A stretch of 55,466 nt of DNA from Reclinomonas americana ATCC 50394 (GCA_048213135.1 PS015331.1:1-55466), one strand, 5' to 3'; shown: positions 26,761-34,303, counted from the first letter of the stretch. The notes: a model not told the origin generated them from the sequence alone. Program-made: numbers and translations.

Positions 26761-29721
26761 TTACTTAGTTCTGCGAGTGCGTGACGCAGATGTGATACTT
26801 TTGCCACGGGTAACAGCTCTAACAGGTACTCTCCACGATCTCAGCGACAAGCCCACAAAGATTGCCACAAACGGAACCACCTCGTACTCGGGATGCAACT
26901 TCCGCAGGTTCGTCGCATATCGCTGCACCTGCTTATCGGCGGCAGCTACCGTGGCTGCAAGTGTCGTTGTGACCATAGCTTGCGCTTTCTGGTCGAAGTA
27001 GCTGTACGACAGAGAAGGCAATTGTTTCCTGCCGTTGTCGGTCGCCAAGTGCTCGTTCGCCTGCACCCACAATTCGTTAGCGAACATCCAACTCTCACCG
27101 CGAAGCAACAGGAGATGCGCACCGGAAGCACAGCCTCGAGAGCAGACTGAGCCTCATCAGTACGATGTGCCTTGGCCTCCATGTATGTCGACTGGCTGGT
27201 TGGAGGACTGCGAAGATTCAAGTGGATCCTGTTTAGTGGAATGCACTTGAACTCGAGCACCAGGATGCGCTTCGGACACTCCATGAAAAGCGCCATGTCG
27301 CAGATTGCTGACACTGGCTCATGCTGCACTCAAAGAGTAAGTGTAATCACAAGTCTCACAGTTCGCAGCATCGTTGCTCACCTCTATGCTGATATTTAGC
27401 TCACACTCAATCTTGGCCGGAACTTTGGCGGCCATGAGCTGCACGTCAAAGGCGTCCCTGACGTTTTTACCTCGCGCACTTGCTCTGGATTACACAACAT
27501 GCGTCGGCGCAAATAGCGCTCACAGACGTCGCTCAAGGGAACAATGTTGAGATCACTGCTTTGTGTTGAGCATACACCGAGTGAAAGGAGGACGTAGAGC
27601 GGCAATTGAAGAAGAACCTGAGGAGCGAATTGCAGGCAGTTGGATCGGTACGCTGCACGAGGCGCTGGAGAATGCGGTCGCGCGTGTTTTCATTCGGCAC
27701 CATCAGCGCTATGCGAGGAGCTTCGAGTAAGCGCAGGGGTGTGCATAGCAAGACGAAACACGACAAACACAACAATTTCCATCCGGCGCGATCGTATAGC
27801 CGCCAAGGTACTGGCAGAACTGCGCAAATGCGGGCGCATCGGCACTGGCAATGTCTTCGTGAAAGAATGGCATGTCACGCGGCAGTGGGATCTTGGAACC
27901 ACGCAGCATGCCAAGCAACGACGGCAGTGAGGCGACTCCACCATCATCTGCAGTGCCGGGCTGCTCAGCTCAGCCTGCTGGAATACAGTGGTCGGCGTTG
28001 CTTGACCCAGCTCTATCAACTGTGGGACCTGATGAGAGGTGTCCGACAAGTGCGAGGAATGAGAACAAAAAAAACACACCCGCAGGTACGACATGACTTG
28101 GTCGGTGCAGTACATGGGAATGGCATCCGCGGACGGGAAGAACCGAAAGCCATTGTAATGCTGACGGATGACGGTACGGTGGAATGTCTTCTCGTCGACA
28201 GACAACGAGCGAGTGCCGTTGAACTGCAGTTGGTCCAACACCAAATCAACCTCGGCGCCCGTCAGACCGCACACGGATTGCGTTTGCTGGAAGAATGTCC
28301 AATCCTGACCGATGTTGAAGCCGCTCGTCATGTCGTTGACGGCCAGGGGGAGTACACTGCGCACGGGGGAAATCAGTGCCTGCAGTGTACGTGATGGGGA
28401 CAGGACAGGAGCTAACCCAGTGATGAGCATGAAGCCAACGGCGTCAGCCTGTACAGCACTCTTGATGGTGGCGAACAGACCCTTCACGCCACTGTCGCTC
28501 AGCAGAATATGGTACTTGCGCTCGTCGACGTCGTCCAGTGCTGGTACGAAGGGGCGATCGGATTCGTCGACGAGGATGACGAGCTGCGAGGTGGCGTGTG
28601 TGCGTGTGTGCAAGTGAGAAAGTGAGTGAGTGAGTGAGTGAGTGAGTGTGAGTGTGTGTGTGCGTTTGTGTGTGTGCATGTGTTGGCGATTGAAAATGAA
28701 AGAGCAAGCTGGTCACACCTTCCTGCCGAGACCCCGCACGGTTCTCACAATGGCCTGAAGCGCAGCAGAAGGCTTGCCGAATCTGGCAATGCCAGACGCC
28801 TTGAACTCGGGATAGCTGTCCAAGAAAGGCGTGACGCAGAACTGCGAAAAGAATTCCTCAAAGGTGGCGCGTGATGACTGTGGTTCCGAGAGCGAGAATT
28901 CCAGCGCCGTCATGTCCATCCTCAACACGTAGTGCTGGCACGGTAGCTGGTTGCGGTGTACCTCGTGGATGCGATCCACAATATGTAACCCCTGCGGCAA
29001 GAAACAGACAACCACAAGCAACGACAAACGCAAACACAAAAGTGGATAGAGAGAGGGAGAGCGTGAGGGAGAGCGACGCTTCTTGAAGAAGGGCGACCAA
29101 GTGAAACATACCAGGAAAAGGCGCTCGAACTTACTCTCTCCCTGTGAGGCCTGTCTGCTGAGCAGCCGCGTGTGCAGTGCCGACACGGCGTGCTCGCGGA
29201 TGGCCCGCACTTCCGCGTGTGAGCGATCAGCCATGGCCTCACGTTCAGCGGAAGACAGCGCATTGTTGATGTCGTGATAGTTGGCGAGAGTGTCGACCAG
29301 CATGCTCTTGCCGAAGCGGCGAGGGCGCACAAAAAGAATAGGCGACACTCTCTCAGGAGCAAGCCAGGGGAGAAGTTGCGCGGTCTTGTCGACATAACAG
29401 AACGACTCGCTCGTGCGGATGCCGACGAAACTGTCACCAGTGGGTGGTGGAATCAAGTGCCCTGCGAGAGAAGAGGAAGGATGACGTGCGTGAGAGATAG
29501 ATAAAGGGTCAGTCGCTCTCGCTTTCTCTTAATCATAGCACAAGAGCAAGAGAGTGCGAAGAGAGAGAGAGAAAATTGCGTGTCAGGTCTGGATCCGGAT
29601 ACTCTGACCACACAGTAATACACTGCACATTAGCTGTTCACGCACCTCCAACGACGGAAGCAGTGGCGGTGGCGTAAGTACGGGGAGATGCGTGGGTGGT
29701 GAATACCCACAAGCGCATCAT
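26761..29721 (-). CDS. AAA-ATPase-like (PF09820-type) + PD-(D/E)xK nuclease (PDDEXK_9/DUF1703-type) protein; intron-containing; apparent frameshift near 27930
   Basis: PTGDSFVGIR...YVDKT...ILFVRPRRFGKSMLVDTL (Walker A), VILVDESDRP (Walker B), HYNGFRF, YLGGYTI, LMVPNE, ICDMALF...ILVLEFKCI (nuclease D...ExK), ADKQVQRY. First exon is 29721-29646. Confidence 0.85.
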
Positions 29722-29796
29722 CTTCGGAGATCAATCTACAAAACAGAAGGTGAGATGTCCTGCGGAAACAGCACACGAATTCTTTGAGCGGACACC

Positions 29797-30095
29797 ATGT
29801 CAAGGGTTGAGGGTGGAGAAGAAACACTGATCTCACGCCAATCAAGGGTTGAGAATGCAGGAGAGACACTGATAACACGCGCACTCCGATCAAGGGTTGA
29901 GGGTGGAGAGAGATACTGATTAATATAGCACGCGCCGATCAAGGGCTGGGGGTGGAAGACACTGATTGCACGCGCACACCGATCAAGAGTTGAGAGTGGA
30001 GAGAGATACTCATCACACGCACACGCCGATCAAGAGTTGACAGTGGAGAGAGATATTGATTGCACACACACACACTCCGATCAAGGGTTCCTGGT
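29797..30095. repeat. ~47-bp minisatellite (ccgatcaagggttgagggtggagagagatactgattgcacgcacaca), copy 1
   Basis: About 6-7 tandem units. Confidence 0.85.
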
Positions 30096-30254: not shown

Positions 30255-33200
30255 CTAATGTTGCAATCCAGTCCGCCACGCGCTCTCGAGATAGGCTCGC
30301 ATCTCAGCATCGGCAAACAGAGCCGCATGTCCGCCACTAGCTAGGAGTCGGAACAATTCGTCCAACGAGCACACACCAATCTCCGTCTGCTGCACTACGC
30401 CGTGTACCGCAGCGGCAAGATCCTCCGACTTGTCCTGTAGAAGAGGCATTCGTCCGTAGAAATGACGAAGGGACGAAACCAGCATTGGAACAGTGGCACA
30501 GTTGACATTCAAGGTCACTGCACCAAACAAACACACAATCATCACCACGATCAGAATCAGTGACTGCAAGCACGCGGGCGCAACAGTATGACATGGCAAT
30601 CAAATGGAATACTGGTCCATGATAGATTCCAAAACCGTGTCCGTCCACAATCCAAACAGGGAGCGCTGGATCCTGCTTGACGTCTTTCAAGCGGTACAAA
30701 CTAACTCCCAGGCATATCGGCAGCACCTTTTGTTTGCGGAACAGATTTGCGATGTGCTGCGAGCGCCACGTCTCAGCATCGCAGCGACGAGACCAATCGT
30801 AGCACAACACATCTCAGCGTACCAATTGACTGCGCCTCACTTCTTTTGCTTCGATTCTTGAGTAGCTCTTGCGTTGATCCAGGAGCACAACATACTCGTA
30901 CTCCTTTCCTTCGTACTTGGTCGGCTGGCTCAGCGGGAGACACACCACAACATCAATTCCGTGCTGACCGTCCTTGCACAGCCAGACGTTGATAGGCTAC
31001 ATACCGAAAAATGAGAAAAGACGTCGCACACACACGAACAATAGAATGAGACATCCTCACCGTCGCTGACTTGCAGCGCTTCACAATCTCCTCCACGACT
31101 CCCTCGTCCTTCAGCAACCCCGGAAGCTTGTTGATCTGAAGACGAATGTGAGGCTGCAACTCTCTCGTCAAGTGACGCGGGACAGCCAGCACACCTCGTA
31201 GGTAACAGTTTCTTTCTTGGTTTCCTCCCTGGAGAAGGCGGCCAAACTGAACATTGGAATCGTGACCTCCAACTTCCACAGGTCGGCAAACTTGTCGCTC
31301 ATATCGAACTGCAACCGAAGATCCTTCTCCGGGTCAGGCGACAGCGAAGTCACGCCAAATCCACGCAAGAGTTTCTCGATTGTACACCGGCGCTGACTCG
31401 CGCGACCATGGTGGGCCAAGAGGAGAAGGTGGAAATAGTATCCAAACGTCTCAAACCACAAGCCCGTGGACTACAGAGAAACCATGAAAGCGAGACATTA
31501 GAGAAAATGAGTGCGAGATGGCAATAAGCTCAACTGACAGACCTGATTTCCCATTGTGTATGCTGCGCACACAGCAGCAAAGCAACGCTGATACAGTGTT
31601 TGTGGAACATGACTGCCATCAGCAAACGGTACTCGAATAGTAGCCACTGTGCGGTTGTGCGGTGCATACTGCAGATATACGAGACCGGTCTGCTCGTACT
31701 CCGCTAGCAGGCCGTCTGGCTCGACTGCCGCGGGTTTACCAGTGAGCGCGCATTGCAAGATGTCGTCGTCACCGGCGGAGAGCAGGAGCCCAGTAGCAGA
31801 ATAATAGAGCGCAACCTTGTTCAACGACTCTGCCGTCACAGCTGCGCAAATCCCACGTAAACGCAAACAAGAACTCGCAGGGTGGATACACTTACATTGT
31901 GCTCACCTTTTTTGTCAAGCACAACAGTTCCCTCTTGCAACCACTGCTTCAGTACACCAGACGGCTCCAGATCGAAAGACTGGAAGACCTTCTGTGTCAA
32001 TACGTGTTCTGCAAATGCGTTGAATAAGAAAGAATTCCCTCAGCGTAACCAGCCATATTAACGCACGAGCAATGCTCTTGATATACTGTTCCCAGCCACG
32101 CGGGTGACCACTGAGCGACTGCATTGTCGCGACGACTCGCCAGGAGCGTCTCCAAGGCAACTTGGCTGCATACATGTAACCACTCCATTCTCAACGAAGT
32201 GGCACACAAAGTGAAGCACGAGCAGCCAGCCAGCCAACCTCACCGTGAAATACATGGTCAATGATGCTCTCCACATCGTGCGGCGGCAGCAACGGCATCG
32301 GCACTGGCTTCACTGCAACTCCGGACGCCTCGAGAATCAAACTGCGCACTGGGCCAGAACCGATCCCGGCAAACACTGGCAAGAGCTGCAGCTGCTGAAA
32401 GGTGGTCATGTATACAGCCTGGCAATGTAGAGCGACCACGCGTAGATACTCTCGACGATCGCTGACGGAAAGGTCATGATTAATCGATACGAGGCGGCCA
32501 ATTTCGTCGACGGACAACAGAATCCAGATCCTGTAACAAGCGGTACGCGGAGGGGTCATAAGCAAAATTCCTACAGTTGTGACACTCGGACAGGCGACAC
32601 GCACCGCTTATTTCCGATATGTGAAGCATAAATCCGTCTCACATCAAAAGCAACAGCCTGAAGGACAGCCGACAGGGAGAGCGCCCGACCCTCGACCCCA
32701 AGGTCCCTGACGAATTCCGGAAGAGCGTAATCCGGCGGGCAAGTATAGTTCCACAAAACGCGAGCCGCGAGTCCAGACAGGCGCAAATTCCGATTCCTCT
32801 CCTCCACCTCCGAAACACCACTTCCATTGCCGTAGGTGACAAACAGTGGTAGCAGCACGGCACCCGCAGGTAAATCTACCATCAAAGCACAATACTAAGG
32901 TATTGGTGCACACGCAGTGCGATTGTAGACAAACGATCACTCACGTTTGACAAATTCCTCTGGCAGTTCCTTGACAAACCTCGACTTGCCTGTACCTGGA
33001 GCGGCAACAACGAACGGCAGCTTCGCATTCATCTTGTCGATCAGATACCCAGCGCCCGACTCGACCGGCTGTCGAAGAGTATTTGCAAATGCACTCAGTA
33101 CCGCTTCCAGTGACAGCTGGCGATCGTCCCACAGATAAGGGAAATCAACCCCAAACGAGTTGATGACGTGCGCCGACGCGCGACGGATTGCCGCTTTCGA

Positions 33201-34303
33201 CTCGTCTGGCACCACAGCAGTCGGTCCGCCGAAAAGCACACGACGTCGCCGATCTTCATCAGAGAGCAAGTACTGAGCCGGGATGCGATCGTGCACCAGC
33301 TGCCAAATGCTCTCTGTGGGTGAAAATGCAGGTCAGGCAGGGAGGTCGATTGATACGCATGCGTAAGGCGACATACCAGCAGTTAGAATCTCGTCCTTCT
33401 TGCGCTTCTCATCGCGCAACGACTTCAACTCGTCGCGTAAGGACTTAATCTCGTCGCCCAGCTTGCCTTCCTTGTCGCGCAAGGACTTAATCACGTCCAG
33501 CAGCTTGTTCTTCTCGTCGCGCAGCTTGTTTTCCTTGTCGCGCAACAGAAGCTTCTCGGCACGCAAATAGTCTAGCTCCTTGCCGGGCCCGGCATTCGCC
33601 GCCTTCATCTCCGCCTCCGTGATCTCGCTTGCAACACCGCGAATGACCGCCTCCAAGTCCTCAATCTTCTGCGCCGTCTCGCTGATCTCTTGCTTAATGT
33701 CAGCTGGACACACATACATGAGATTGTAATGAGATACGAGAGATGGGATAAGAGGGAGAAGGAGGGGGAGGGGGAGGGGAGGGGGGGGGAGGNNNNNNNN
33801 NNNNNNNNNNNNNNNNNNNNNNNNNNNNNNNNNNNNNNNNNNNNNNNNNNNNNNNNNNNNNNNNNNNNNNNNNNNNNNNNNNNNNNNNNNNNNNNNNNNN
33901 NNNNNNNNNNNNNNNNNNNNNNNNNNNNNNNNNNNNNNNNNNNNNNNNNNNNNNNNNNNNNNNNNNNNNNNNNNNNNNNNNNNNNNNNNNNNNNNNNNNN
34001 NNNNNNNNNNNNNNNNNNNNNNNNNNNNNNNNNNNNNNNNNNNNNNNNNNNNNNNNNNNGAAGAGGGAAGAGGGAGAGGGAAGAGGGAAGAGGGAAGAGG
34101 GAAGAGGGAAGAGAGATGAGGGAAGAGGGAAGAGGGAGGAGGGAAGAGGGAAGAGGGAAGAGGGAGGAGGGAAGAGGGAGGAGGGAAGAAGGAAGAGGGA
34201 GGAGGGAAGAGGGAGGAGGGAGGAGGGAAGAGGGAAGAGGGTGAGTGAAAGGGAGAGAGTGAGGGAGAGGGAGGGGGAGAAAAAACAGGAGCACACCAGC
34301 CAT
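30255..34303 (-). CDS. Crinkler/RHS-like (CR) effector: coiled-coil header + STAND-like P-loop NTPase + REase-fold nuclease + C-terminal HhH-like module; start codon tentative
   Basis: Header ELDYLRAEKLLLRDKENKLRDEKNKL; Walker A VVAAPGTGKSR; LFVTYGNGS; Walker B ILLSVDEIG; LSGHPRGWEQY; WFETFG; nuclease GIDVVV...VVLLDQRKS; C-terminal LNVNCATVPML...SLDEL. Short GT-AG introns join the pieces. Confidence 0.75.

What the first reader, a model, noticed from the sequence alone, without database searches (positions are those of the whole stretch)
26761..29721. Bacterial-type ATPase-nuclease with a mitochondrial-presequence-like N-terminus
The first exon (29721-29646) has an in-frame TGA just upstream and is phase-compatible with the next exon. 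It encodes MMRLWVFTTHASPRTYATATASVVG, which lacks acidic residues, is Arg/Ser/Thr-rich and contains an R-x-Y|A (R-3) cleavage-like motif. This suggests a horizontally acquired PF09820/PDDEXK_9 nuclease retargeted to mitochondria, perhaps for mtDNA elimination or action against organellar parasites. A frameshift near 27930 may be a sequencing error or decay.
Basis: partly seen in the sequence, partly recalled or inferred. Interest (0 to 1): 0.7.

Follow-up and report, generated by a model that had tools for sequence, protein, structure and literature searches.

The report
Mitochondria-addressed ATPase-nuclease gene family
A free-living protist carries a family of genes for an ATP-driven DNA-cutting enzyme of bacterial ancestry, most with what looks like a mitochondrial address tag and one pair with a nuclear-type tag; this copy is broken by two frameshifts, and neither delivery nor function has been shown.

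Summary
The gene is real: 10 exons encoding a DUF1703-type protein (PF09820 ATPase plus PD-(D/E)XK nuclease) with its catalytic motifs present. The 25-residue first exon is confirmed and no rival 5' exon was found. On its own that leader is a weak presequence. The family makes the case: about 16 copies in 9 lineages, and 9 of the 11 copies with a visible 5' end carry basic, acid-poor ML-R-type leaders like this genome's own mitochondrial proteins. One nested pair has an acidic leader with nuclear-signal-like clusters instead. Best reading: a Crinkler/RHS-type conflict nuclease whose header was replaced by a mitochondrial presequence. Import, expression and substrate are untested. The scan noted the same kind of gene before on another piece of this genome (e1-7450732, probably the sister copy). 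I found no paper on mitochondrial DUF1703 proteins, but could not read the key paper on this effector class.

The parts
29646..29721 (-). Exon 1: 25-residue presequence-like leader, phase-1 splice
   Evidence: in register with the first exons of paralogues; differs from the sister copy by a frame-keeping 6-nt indel
29731..29733 (-). In-frame TGA closing the frame upstream of the start codon
   Evidence: also in the sister copy
29112..29461 (-). Exon 2: start of the ATPase; variant Walker A RPRRFGKS at 29327-29304
   Evidence: PF09820 E 8.6e-12; alignment
28719..28991 (-). Exon 3: ATPase
   Evidence: spliced alignment, same intron positions in paralogues
28417..28583 (-). Exon 4: Walker B DESD (family consensus DEYD) at 28568-28557, and the ITG sensor-1 region
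28080..28356 (-). Exon 5: SGFN and YNGFRF motifs (end of ATPase, helical lid)
27774..28028 (-). Exon 6: helical region, holding frameshift 1
27926..27929 (-). Frameshift 1: one base fewer than the sister copy and paralogues; as assembled the frame stops after residue 467, before the nuclease
   Evidence: the run contig that has the extra base matches the sister copy, not this one
27618..27708 (-). Exon 7
27382..27555 (-). Exon 8: start of the nuclease domain, motif I Glu at 27473-27471, holding frameshift 2
27464..27468 (-).
27123..27323 (-). Exon 9: nuclease motif II Asp (27299-27297) and motif III E-x-K (27254-27246)
26761..27060 (-). Exon 10: motif IV Gln (26931-26929), basic C-terminal tail, stop codon
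29834..30089 (.). 47-bp tandem repeat array upstream of the gene; likeness to the sister contig ends inside it
30255..33703 (-). Upstream neighbour: multi-exon coiled coil + P-loop NTPase + nuclease-like tail, probably a second, unrelated CR-type gene
   Evidence: sequence motifs; no Pfam hit over cut-off; nearest Atlas clusters Mucoromycota and Oomycota, a lead only

Best explanation
A nuclear gene of an aerobic protist (a jakobid by earlier scan notes) for a roughly 720-residue DUF1703-type protein, one of about 16 copies in 9 lineages. Shown: the exon structure, ATPase and PD-(D/E)XK motifs, a 25-28 residue extension absent from bacterial homologues, purifying selection between lineages, and two leader types in the family. 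Inferred: the basic leader takes the protein through the mitochondrial import route and is cleaved after the R-x-Y/L motif; in the matrix the ATPase gates the nuclease, which cuts DNA. Most likely role: a conflict weapon inside the organelle (removing foreign or selfish DNA, or destroying mtDNA as a suicide or selfish-killing switch), with one lineage re-addressed to the nucleus. This is the header-swapping design of Crinkler/RHS-type NTPase-REase proteins, with a presequence as header. The window's copy is a probably defective allele; its sister is intact.
For: Leaders: 9 of 11 visible 5' ends, 5 of 6 lineages, begin M-L/M-(x)-R with 2-5 R/K and 0-1 D/E in 25 residues; helical moments 0.53-0.77 in the four other lineages, against 0.45, 0.60 and 0.70 for this genome's mtHsp70, GcvH and cytochrome c1 leaders. 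Such a start occurs in 45 of 3783 null peptides, and only 5.4% of 647 internal coding windows are acid-free with two R/K. Leaders can be better conserved than the enzyme (C68 vs C152: 58% vs 34%). In 158 fetched homologues of 540-640 residues Walker A lies at a median position of 42, here at 70. The acidic pair C3744/C84 keeps the old leader's end and nests among ML-R lineages (87/89 with C68, inside a 99/100 group). dN/dS between lineages 0.25-0.43. Conflict signs: many diverged copies, degenerate active sites in two lineages, frameshifted copies, a CR-like neighbour, synteny break at the repeat, Crinkler headers on fungal relatives, and bacterial relatives that stand alone with no methyltransferase or fixed partner among 100 neighbouring ORFs of 20 loci, 10 of which lie by other nuclease, toxin-antitoxin, transposase or DUF1703 genes.
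Against: No targeting predictor, RNA read or localisation was available. The window's leader is the weakest of the family (two Arg, moment 0.28, below 84% of null peptides). The leaders share ancestry, so 9 of 11 is not nine independent tests; the leaders of C152/C47 and C83/C11254 rest on splice sites I chose by hand. In Andalucia godoyi, 10-15% of TargetP hits were false positives, mostly nucleic-acid-binding proteins (PMC7050145, passage). No DUF1703 or PF09820 term occurs in that paper's text or its 7 readable supplements. No DUF1703 protein has a shown activity in what I read, there is no solved relative and no PADLOC match. An unguarded DNase beside mtDNA needs tight control, for which no partner is known.
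Confidence: 0.45

Rival explanations
1. The leader is not a mitochondrial signal but a shrunken or novel CR-type header; the proteins work in the cytosol or nucleus, or are delivered to prey, viruses or intracellular bacteria.
For: Weak amphipathicity of this copy; a basic C-terminal tail in this lineage; Crinkler proteins localise to nuclei (PMC5289972, passages); a conserved sequence motif (M-L-R-x-C ... S-T-x-A-S-V-x-G-G) is tighter than presequences need.
Against: Composition and start match three in-genome mitochondrial controls; the unalignable C83 leader (19-21% identity to three of the four others compared) keeps the same properties; the lineage with nuclear-type signals has dropped the ML-R start.
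Confidence: 0.3
2. Mitochondrial, but domesticated for mtDNA turnover, recombination or uniparental elimination.
For: Presequence-like leaders are ancestral in the family; purifying selection; intron positions appear shared with an unnamed environmental relative, P0002 (by eye), so the family is not recent.
Against: Nine diverged lineages, broken and degenerate copies and a nuclear-type offshoot fit birth-and-death evolution, not a single housekeeping enzyme; no such term in the Andalucia mitochondrial proteome paper.
Confidence: 0.15
3. A selfish NTPase-REase element that spreads its own copies (transposon-like or Medea-like), the leaders being secondary.
For: Bacterial relatives stand alone in changing contexts; the Tribolium Medea1 element carries a DUF1703 homologue (PMC6387759 section 14; PMC11342252 passage); synteny breaks at the 47-bp array just upstream.
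Against: Nine introns at shared positions, copies mostly in haplotype-like pairs, and no shared flanks among lineages in the comparisons made; a mitochondrial address would not serve nuclear transposition.
Confidence: 0.1
4. Separate question, the frameshifts: both are assembly errors and the window's copy is an intact second allele.
For: Both lie at runs of one base; flow-type TACG scraps beside gaps suggest pyrosequencing (my inference); substitutions on this copy's branch are 11 synonymous and 11 non-synonymous, i.e. no sign of long decay (distant outgroup).
Against: 0 frameshifts in 3513 aligned Hsp70 codons against 4 in 7671 codons of 14 family copies; about 1.8 would be expected at the family rate, so this is suggestive only. 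Two hits in one copy, one in a 2-base run and one of two bases, are atypical of such errors.
Confidence: 0.45

Closest known systems
Bacterial DUF1703 proteins (PF09820 AAA-ATPase_like + PF08011 PDDEXK_9; Knizewski et al. 2007, PMC1913061), ~595-residue subgroup of Competibacter, Thiotrichales, Desulfobacterales and Chloroflexota
   Same: Domain order, RPRRFGKS Walker A, ITG sensor-1 region, nuclease motifs I-IV; lineage-specific expansion as in Cardinium (PMC6387759)
   Different: Nine introns, an added leader exon, Walker B DESD for DEYD, about 30-40% identity over exon 5; not its nearest group in the tree
Crinkler/RHS-type (CR) NTPase-REase proteins of Mortierellales and other fungi (PF20147 + PF09820, e.g. 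P0120, P0126); class defined by Zhang et al. 2016, known to me only through PMC5289972 and PMC11342252
   Same: Same enzyme module and the best scores; grouped together at SH-aLRT 96-99; exchangeable N-terminal header; basic clusters before the ATPase as in C3744/C84
   Different: No ubiquitin-like Crinkler header: the header is a 25-residue presequence-like peptide; described CRNs act in nuclei
Tribolium castaneum Medea1 element (DUF1703 homologue; CR-NTPase8 + CR-REase7 in PMC11342252)
   Same: A DUF1703-type gene of bacterial origin in a eukaryote nucleus, tied to genetic conflict
   Different: Not compared by sequence here; a single insertion in a beetle, with no organelle leader in the passages read
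Entosiphon sulcatum EukProt protein P0031
   Same: Nearest named protein in two of three trees (85; 91/90); also has an N-terminal extension with an acid-poor start
   Different: Extension of about 135 residues; long branches meet here, so the pairing may be false

Membership tests
DUF1703 (PF09820 + PF08011) | N-terminal PF09820 ATPase with variant Walker A RPRRFGKS | tested here: met
   E 8.6e-12, over cut-off; motif exact; definition from PMC1913061
DUF1703 (PF09820 + PF08011) | Walker B DEYD and sensor-1 (F/L)ITG | tested here: met
   DESD keeps both acidic residues and the last Asp, Tyr to Ser; ITG present
DUF1703 (PF09820 + PF08011) | C-terminal PD-(D/E)XK domain with motif I Glu, motif II Asp, motif III E-x-K and motif IV Gln | tested here: met
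   All four align with bacterial PF08011 proteins
DUF1703 (PF09820 + PF08011) | Match to the PF08011 profile itself | tested here: inconclusive
   No hit exon by exon; the domain is split over three exons, and close bacterial relatives also miss the cut-off
Crinkler (CRN) effectors in the strict sense | Ubiquitin-like LxLFLAK header (PF20147) | tested here: not met
   The N-terminus is 25 residues closed upstream by a stop, too short for the 106-position domain found on fungal relatives
CR (Crinkler/RHS-type) NTPase-REase proteins | NTPase + REase module homologous to those of header-bearing CR proteins | tested here: met
   Scores and trees
CR (Crinkler/RHS-type) NTPase-REase proteins | Assignment to a numbered clade (CR-NTPase8 / CR-REase7) | not testable with these tools
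   Zhang et al. 2016 not held; link only through Medea1 in two other papers
Cleavable mitochondrial presequence | N-terminal, net positive, acid-free, Ser/Thr/Ala-rich, with an Arg-based cleavage motif | tested here: met
   +2, no D/E to residue 35, 11 S/T/A, R-T-Y-A; feature list from general knowledge
Cleavable mitochondrial presequence | Amphipathic helix | tested here: inconclusive
   Moment 0.28 in this copy (below 84% of null); 0.53-0.77 in the other four lineages; controls 0.45-0.70
Cleavable mitochondrial presequence | Import and processing in mitochondria | not testable with these tools
   No TargetP or MitoFates, no RNA run listed, no experiment
Catalogued anti-phage defence systems | Match to a PADLOC model | tested here: not met
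   0 families for 7 proteins

The most novel reading that the evidence does not exclude
A protist with a bacteria-like mitochondrion keeps an expanding family of ATP-gated restriction-like nucleases addressed to the mitochondrial matrix, an organelle-level immune or suicide system built from the Crinkler/RHS module, and re-addresses members between mitochondrion and nucleus by exchanging the first exon.
Probability: 0.35. Interest if true: 0.75.

Novelty: new variant of a known kind. Interest (0 to 1): 0.45.

Why it matters
Crinkler/RHS-type nucleases are described as nuclear or exported weapons. A family aimed at the cell's own mitochondrion would point to DNA-level conflict inside the organelle (plasmids, viruses, rival mtDNAs, or cell suicide) and give a testable handle on it. 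The family also offers a natural paired test: near-identical enzymes behind a mitochondrial-type and a nuclear-type leader. If import fails, this is an ordinary new member of a known eukaryotic DUF1703 group, and the window's copy a broken allele.

Tried and rejected
RNA evidence: no RNA holder listed; no evidence either way. DNA run X1: three short contigs; the one covering frameshift 1 carries the sister copy's differences and the one matching this copy ends at 27467, so neither indel is resolved. Reading either frameshift as a small intron: rejected, since paralogues are in frame and colinear there. The alternative reading frame over exon 1 (acidic, E-D-D-A-L): rejected, wrong phase for exon 2 and stopped in the sister copy. 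Direct transfer from the bacteria co-assembled in this genome: no PF09820 match on contigs C1 or C2 among the 18 matches. First homologue search with one 217-residue piece: nothing. Search for full-length eukaryotic relatives with an exon-5 profile: 120 hits; those with a name are bacterial and none is over 41% identical. No solved relative, no PADLOC or NCBIfam match. No structure model could be made, so the fold of the nuclease is inferred from motifs. The careful 47-row mixture tree did not finish; its quick version has SH-aLRT only, and no AU test was run. T7-type RNA polymerase search blank, with a control that rang nowhere. Viral contigs hold relatives (200 of 337 stretches), not followed up. 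Malate dehydrogenase as a fourth presequence control: 5' end in a gap.

Full report
Observation. The gene lies on the minus strand in ten exons: 29721-29646, 29461-29112, 28991-28719, 28583-28417, 28356-28080, 28028-27774, 27708-27618, 27555-27382, 27323-27123 and 27060-26761, with nine GT-AG introns of 51-184 nt (spliced alignment). It is the only such candidate within 1 kb; three others fall inside the upstream gene. Exon 2 matches PF09820 at E 8.6e-12. Alignment with bacterial relatives shows the features that Knizewski et al. give for DUF1703 (PMC1913061, passages): Walker A RPRRFGKS, Walker B (here DESD), the ITG region and nuclease motifs I-IV. PF08011 is not hit by the nine single pieces scanned.

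Frameshifts. There are two: one base missing at about 27927 and two extra A at 27468-27464, both against a sister copy on contig C5451 that is an intact 722-residue frame with the same nine introns. As assembled, the window's frame stops after residue 467, before the nuclease. The assembly appears to hold two haplotypes, since IscU, chaperonin and Hsp70 genes come in pairs, so the two are probably alleles; they share the downstream flank, and likeness ends inside a 47-bp repeat array upstream. For error: both indels lie at base runs, the assembly shows flow-type scraps beside gaps (my inference), and this copy's branch has 11 synonymous and 11 non-synonymous changes. For decay: 0 frameshifts in 3513 aligned Hsp70 codons, and 12 flags in chaperonin genes that I judged by eye to lie in introns or at joins of the reference, against 4 in 7671 codons of 14 family copies (C221, C83 and C3752 left out for gaps or poor alignment). 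About 1.8 would be expected in the control, so this is suggestive only. The one public run does not cover either site on this allele. I put real decay at about 55%.

The family. Two searches of the own genome found 18 contigs, about 16 copies in 9 lineages if two split pairs are single genes; the counts are lower bounds. Intron positions are shared and dN/dS between lineages is 0.25-0.43. The 5' end is visible in 11 copies of 6 lineages. Nine start M-L/M-(x)-R, with 2-5 basic and 0-1 acidic residues in the first 25; for four of them the leader spans small exons whose splice sites I chose by hand. Two (C3744, C84) start with an acidic stretch and two basic clusters of nuclear-signal type (my reading, from general knowledge), yet end in the same A-S-V-V-G-G as the others. 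In a bootstrap tree of 14 own copies and 6 outside rows, this pair sits with C68 (87/89) inside a 99/100 group, and the earliest branch has an ML-x-R leader, so the presequence type is probably ancestral.

How good is the presequence? Alone, modest: 20% of 3783 null peptides are acid-free with two basic residues, 1.6% also have an R-3-like motif, and 84% are at least as amphipathic (the null set includes the family loci themselves). The other four lineages score 0.53-0.77 in helical moment, like three mitochondrial proteins read from the same genome (mtHsp70 0.45, GcvH 0.60, cytochrome c1 0.70), all of which start M-L. The window's P-R-T-Y-A parallels P-R-F-A in GcvH. Bacterial relatives have no such extension: Walker A lies at a median of 42 in 158 homologues, 5 of them at 60 or later, and at 70 here. 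Leaders are sometimes more conserved than the enzyme. I estimate about 65% that the ML-R leaders address mitochondria. Gray et al. report that standard predictors work for Andalucia godoyi but give 10-15% false positives, mostly nucleic-acid-binding proteins (PMC7050145, passages). The host has an aerobic mitochondrion (nuclear cytochrome c1). Earlier scan notes call it a jakobid; I did not test that, beyond a weak blank for T7-type RNA polymerase, which jakobids lack by the same paper.

Origin. A search of 1.84 billion representatives gave 59 hits, the best two unnamed at about 50% identity. Named eukaryotic relatives are Mortierellales, Jimgerdemannia, Rickenella and the euglenid Entosiphon; several fungal ones carry a Crinkler header. 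The intact sister scores best against three Mortierellales proteins. In two trees (66 rows, LG+G4; 47 rows, C20 mixture, 19 long, gappy or redundant rows dropped) the family, the fungi, Entosiphon and unnamed proteins form one group apart from bacteria at SH-aLRT 99; Rickenella fell outside on a long branch. These are quick trees without bootstrap or AU test, long branches meet, and five unnamed rows were labelled eukaryotic or fungal by my judgement. So the module is of bacterial stock but belongs to a wider eukaryotic group; no donor can be named. Twenty close bacterial loci show no fixed partner or methyltransferase among 100 neighbouring ORFs, and 10 have other nuclease, toxin-antitoxin, transposase or DUF1703 genes near by (no control set).

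Mechanism. Most likely the protein is imported, the leader cleaved, and the ATPase gates a PD-(D/E)XK DNase. That the NTPase regulates the REase is the view reported for CR proteins (PMC5289972, passages). The family behaves like conflict genes: many diverged copies, broken and degenerate members, header exchange, and a second CR-like NTPase-nuclease gene directly upstream. I therefore favour a defensive, suicide or selfish-killing role in the organelle (0.45 overall) over no mitochondrial targeting (0.3), domesticated mtDNA handling (0.15) or a self-spreading element (0.1). Structure, motifs, selection and leader types are shown; import, activity and target are inferred.

What is known. DUF1703 is described in bacteria, expanded in Cardinium with signal peptides predicted on 10 of 25 copies and function unknown, and present in the beetle Medea element (PMC6387759, section 14 read whole); Medea1 is classed as CR-NTPase8 + CR-REase7 (PMC11342252, passage). 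Zhang et al. 2016, which defines the class, was not held and it or its supplements may list protist or organelle-targeted members. Searches for PF09820, DUF1703, PDDEXK_9 and CR-NTPase (3, 6, 4 and 3 papers, listings), for Crinkler with mitochondrial targeting (0 papers) and a wider set (1 unrelated paper) showed no mitochondrial member in titles or abstracts. The Andalucia paper's text and 7 supplements hold none of these terms; one scanned file was not searchable. PMC10952713 (passage) lists PF09820 among domains seen in defence systems; PMC12957317 and PMC8134430 (passages) added nothing. The scan's note e1-7450732 reached the same cautious reading on a 2996-letter piece, the length of the C5451 gene; it is not independent support.

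Verdict. A member of the DUF1703 family and of the eukaryotic CR-type NTPase-REase group, not a Crinkler in the strict sense. The new element is a presequence-like header across a family, with one lineage switched to a nuclear-type header. New variant of a known kind; interest 0.45, rising to about 0.75 if import and an organellar conflict role are shown.

Noticed in passing
window 30255-33703, minus strand: Multi-exon gene with a 21-nt-repeat coiled coil, P-loop (APGTGKS), Walker B-like LSVDEIG and a nuclease-like tail; probably an unrelated CR-type NTPase-REase, its 5' end lost in a gap. Atlas neighbours are Mucoromycota and Oomycota hypothetical proteins (lead only).
   Followed up: partly
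window 29834-30089 and 50010-50323; L022 3578-3848: A 46-47-bp tandem repeat family; likeness between this contig and the sister contig C5451 ends inside it, and the upstream genes differ (a multi-membrane-span gene in C5451).
   Followed up: partly
G000 C3744 and C84 (L023, L020): Intact paralogue pair whose first exon is acidic with two basic clusters (KKYKRVRV, PKMKRRKT) spliced onto the remnant end of the presequence-like leader; a WD40-type gene lies just upstream.
   Followed up: partly
G000 C5251/C6131 and C152/C47: Paralogue pairs with altered catalytic motifs: Walker B Glu lost in both pairs, E-x-K changed to E-x-N in C5251/C6131, Walker A changed in C152/C47; possible decoys or regulators.
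   Followed up: no
G000, whole assembly: IscU, chaperonin and Hsp70 genes occur in pairs and the pairs compared are 93-98% alike, as if two haplotypes were assembled apart.
   Followed up: partly
G000 C1, C2, C14726, C3231: Non-host DNA in the assembly: two large bacterial contigs (the C1 16S looks Chitinophagaceae-like, recognised from memory) and a plant-type cox1 scrap with a frameshift in a T run (also from memory); no host cox1 among 3 matches.
   Followed up: no
   Followed up: no
P0002 (unnamed assembly protein): Relative at about 50% identity whose called protein seems to read through introns at the positions of introns 5 and 6 here, so a related eukaryote carries the family.
   Followed up: partly
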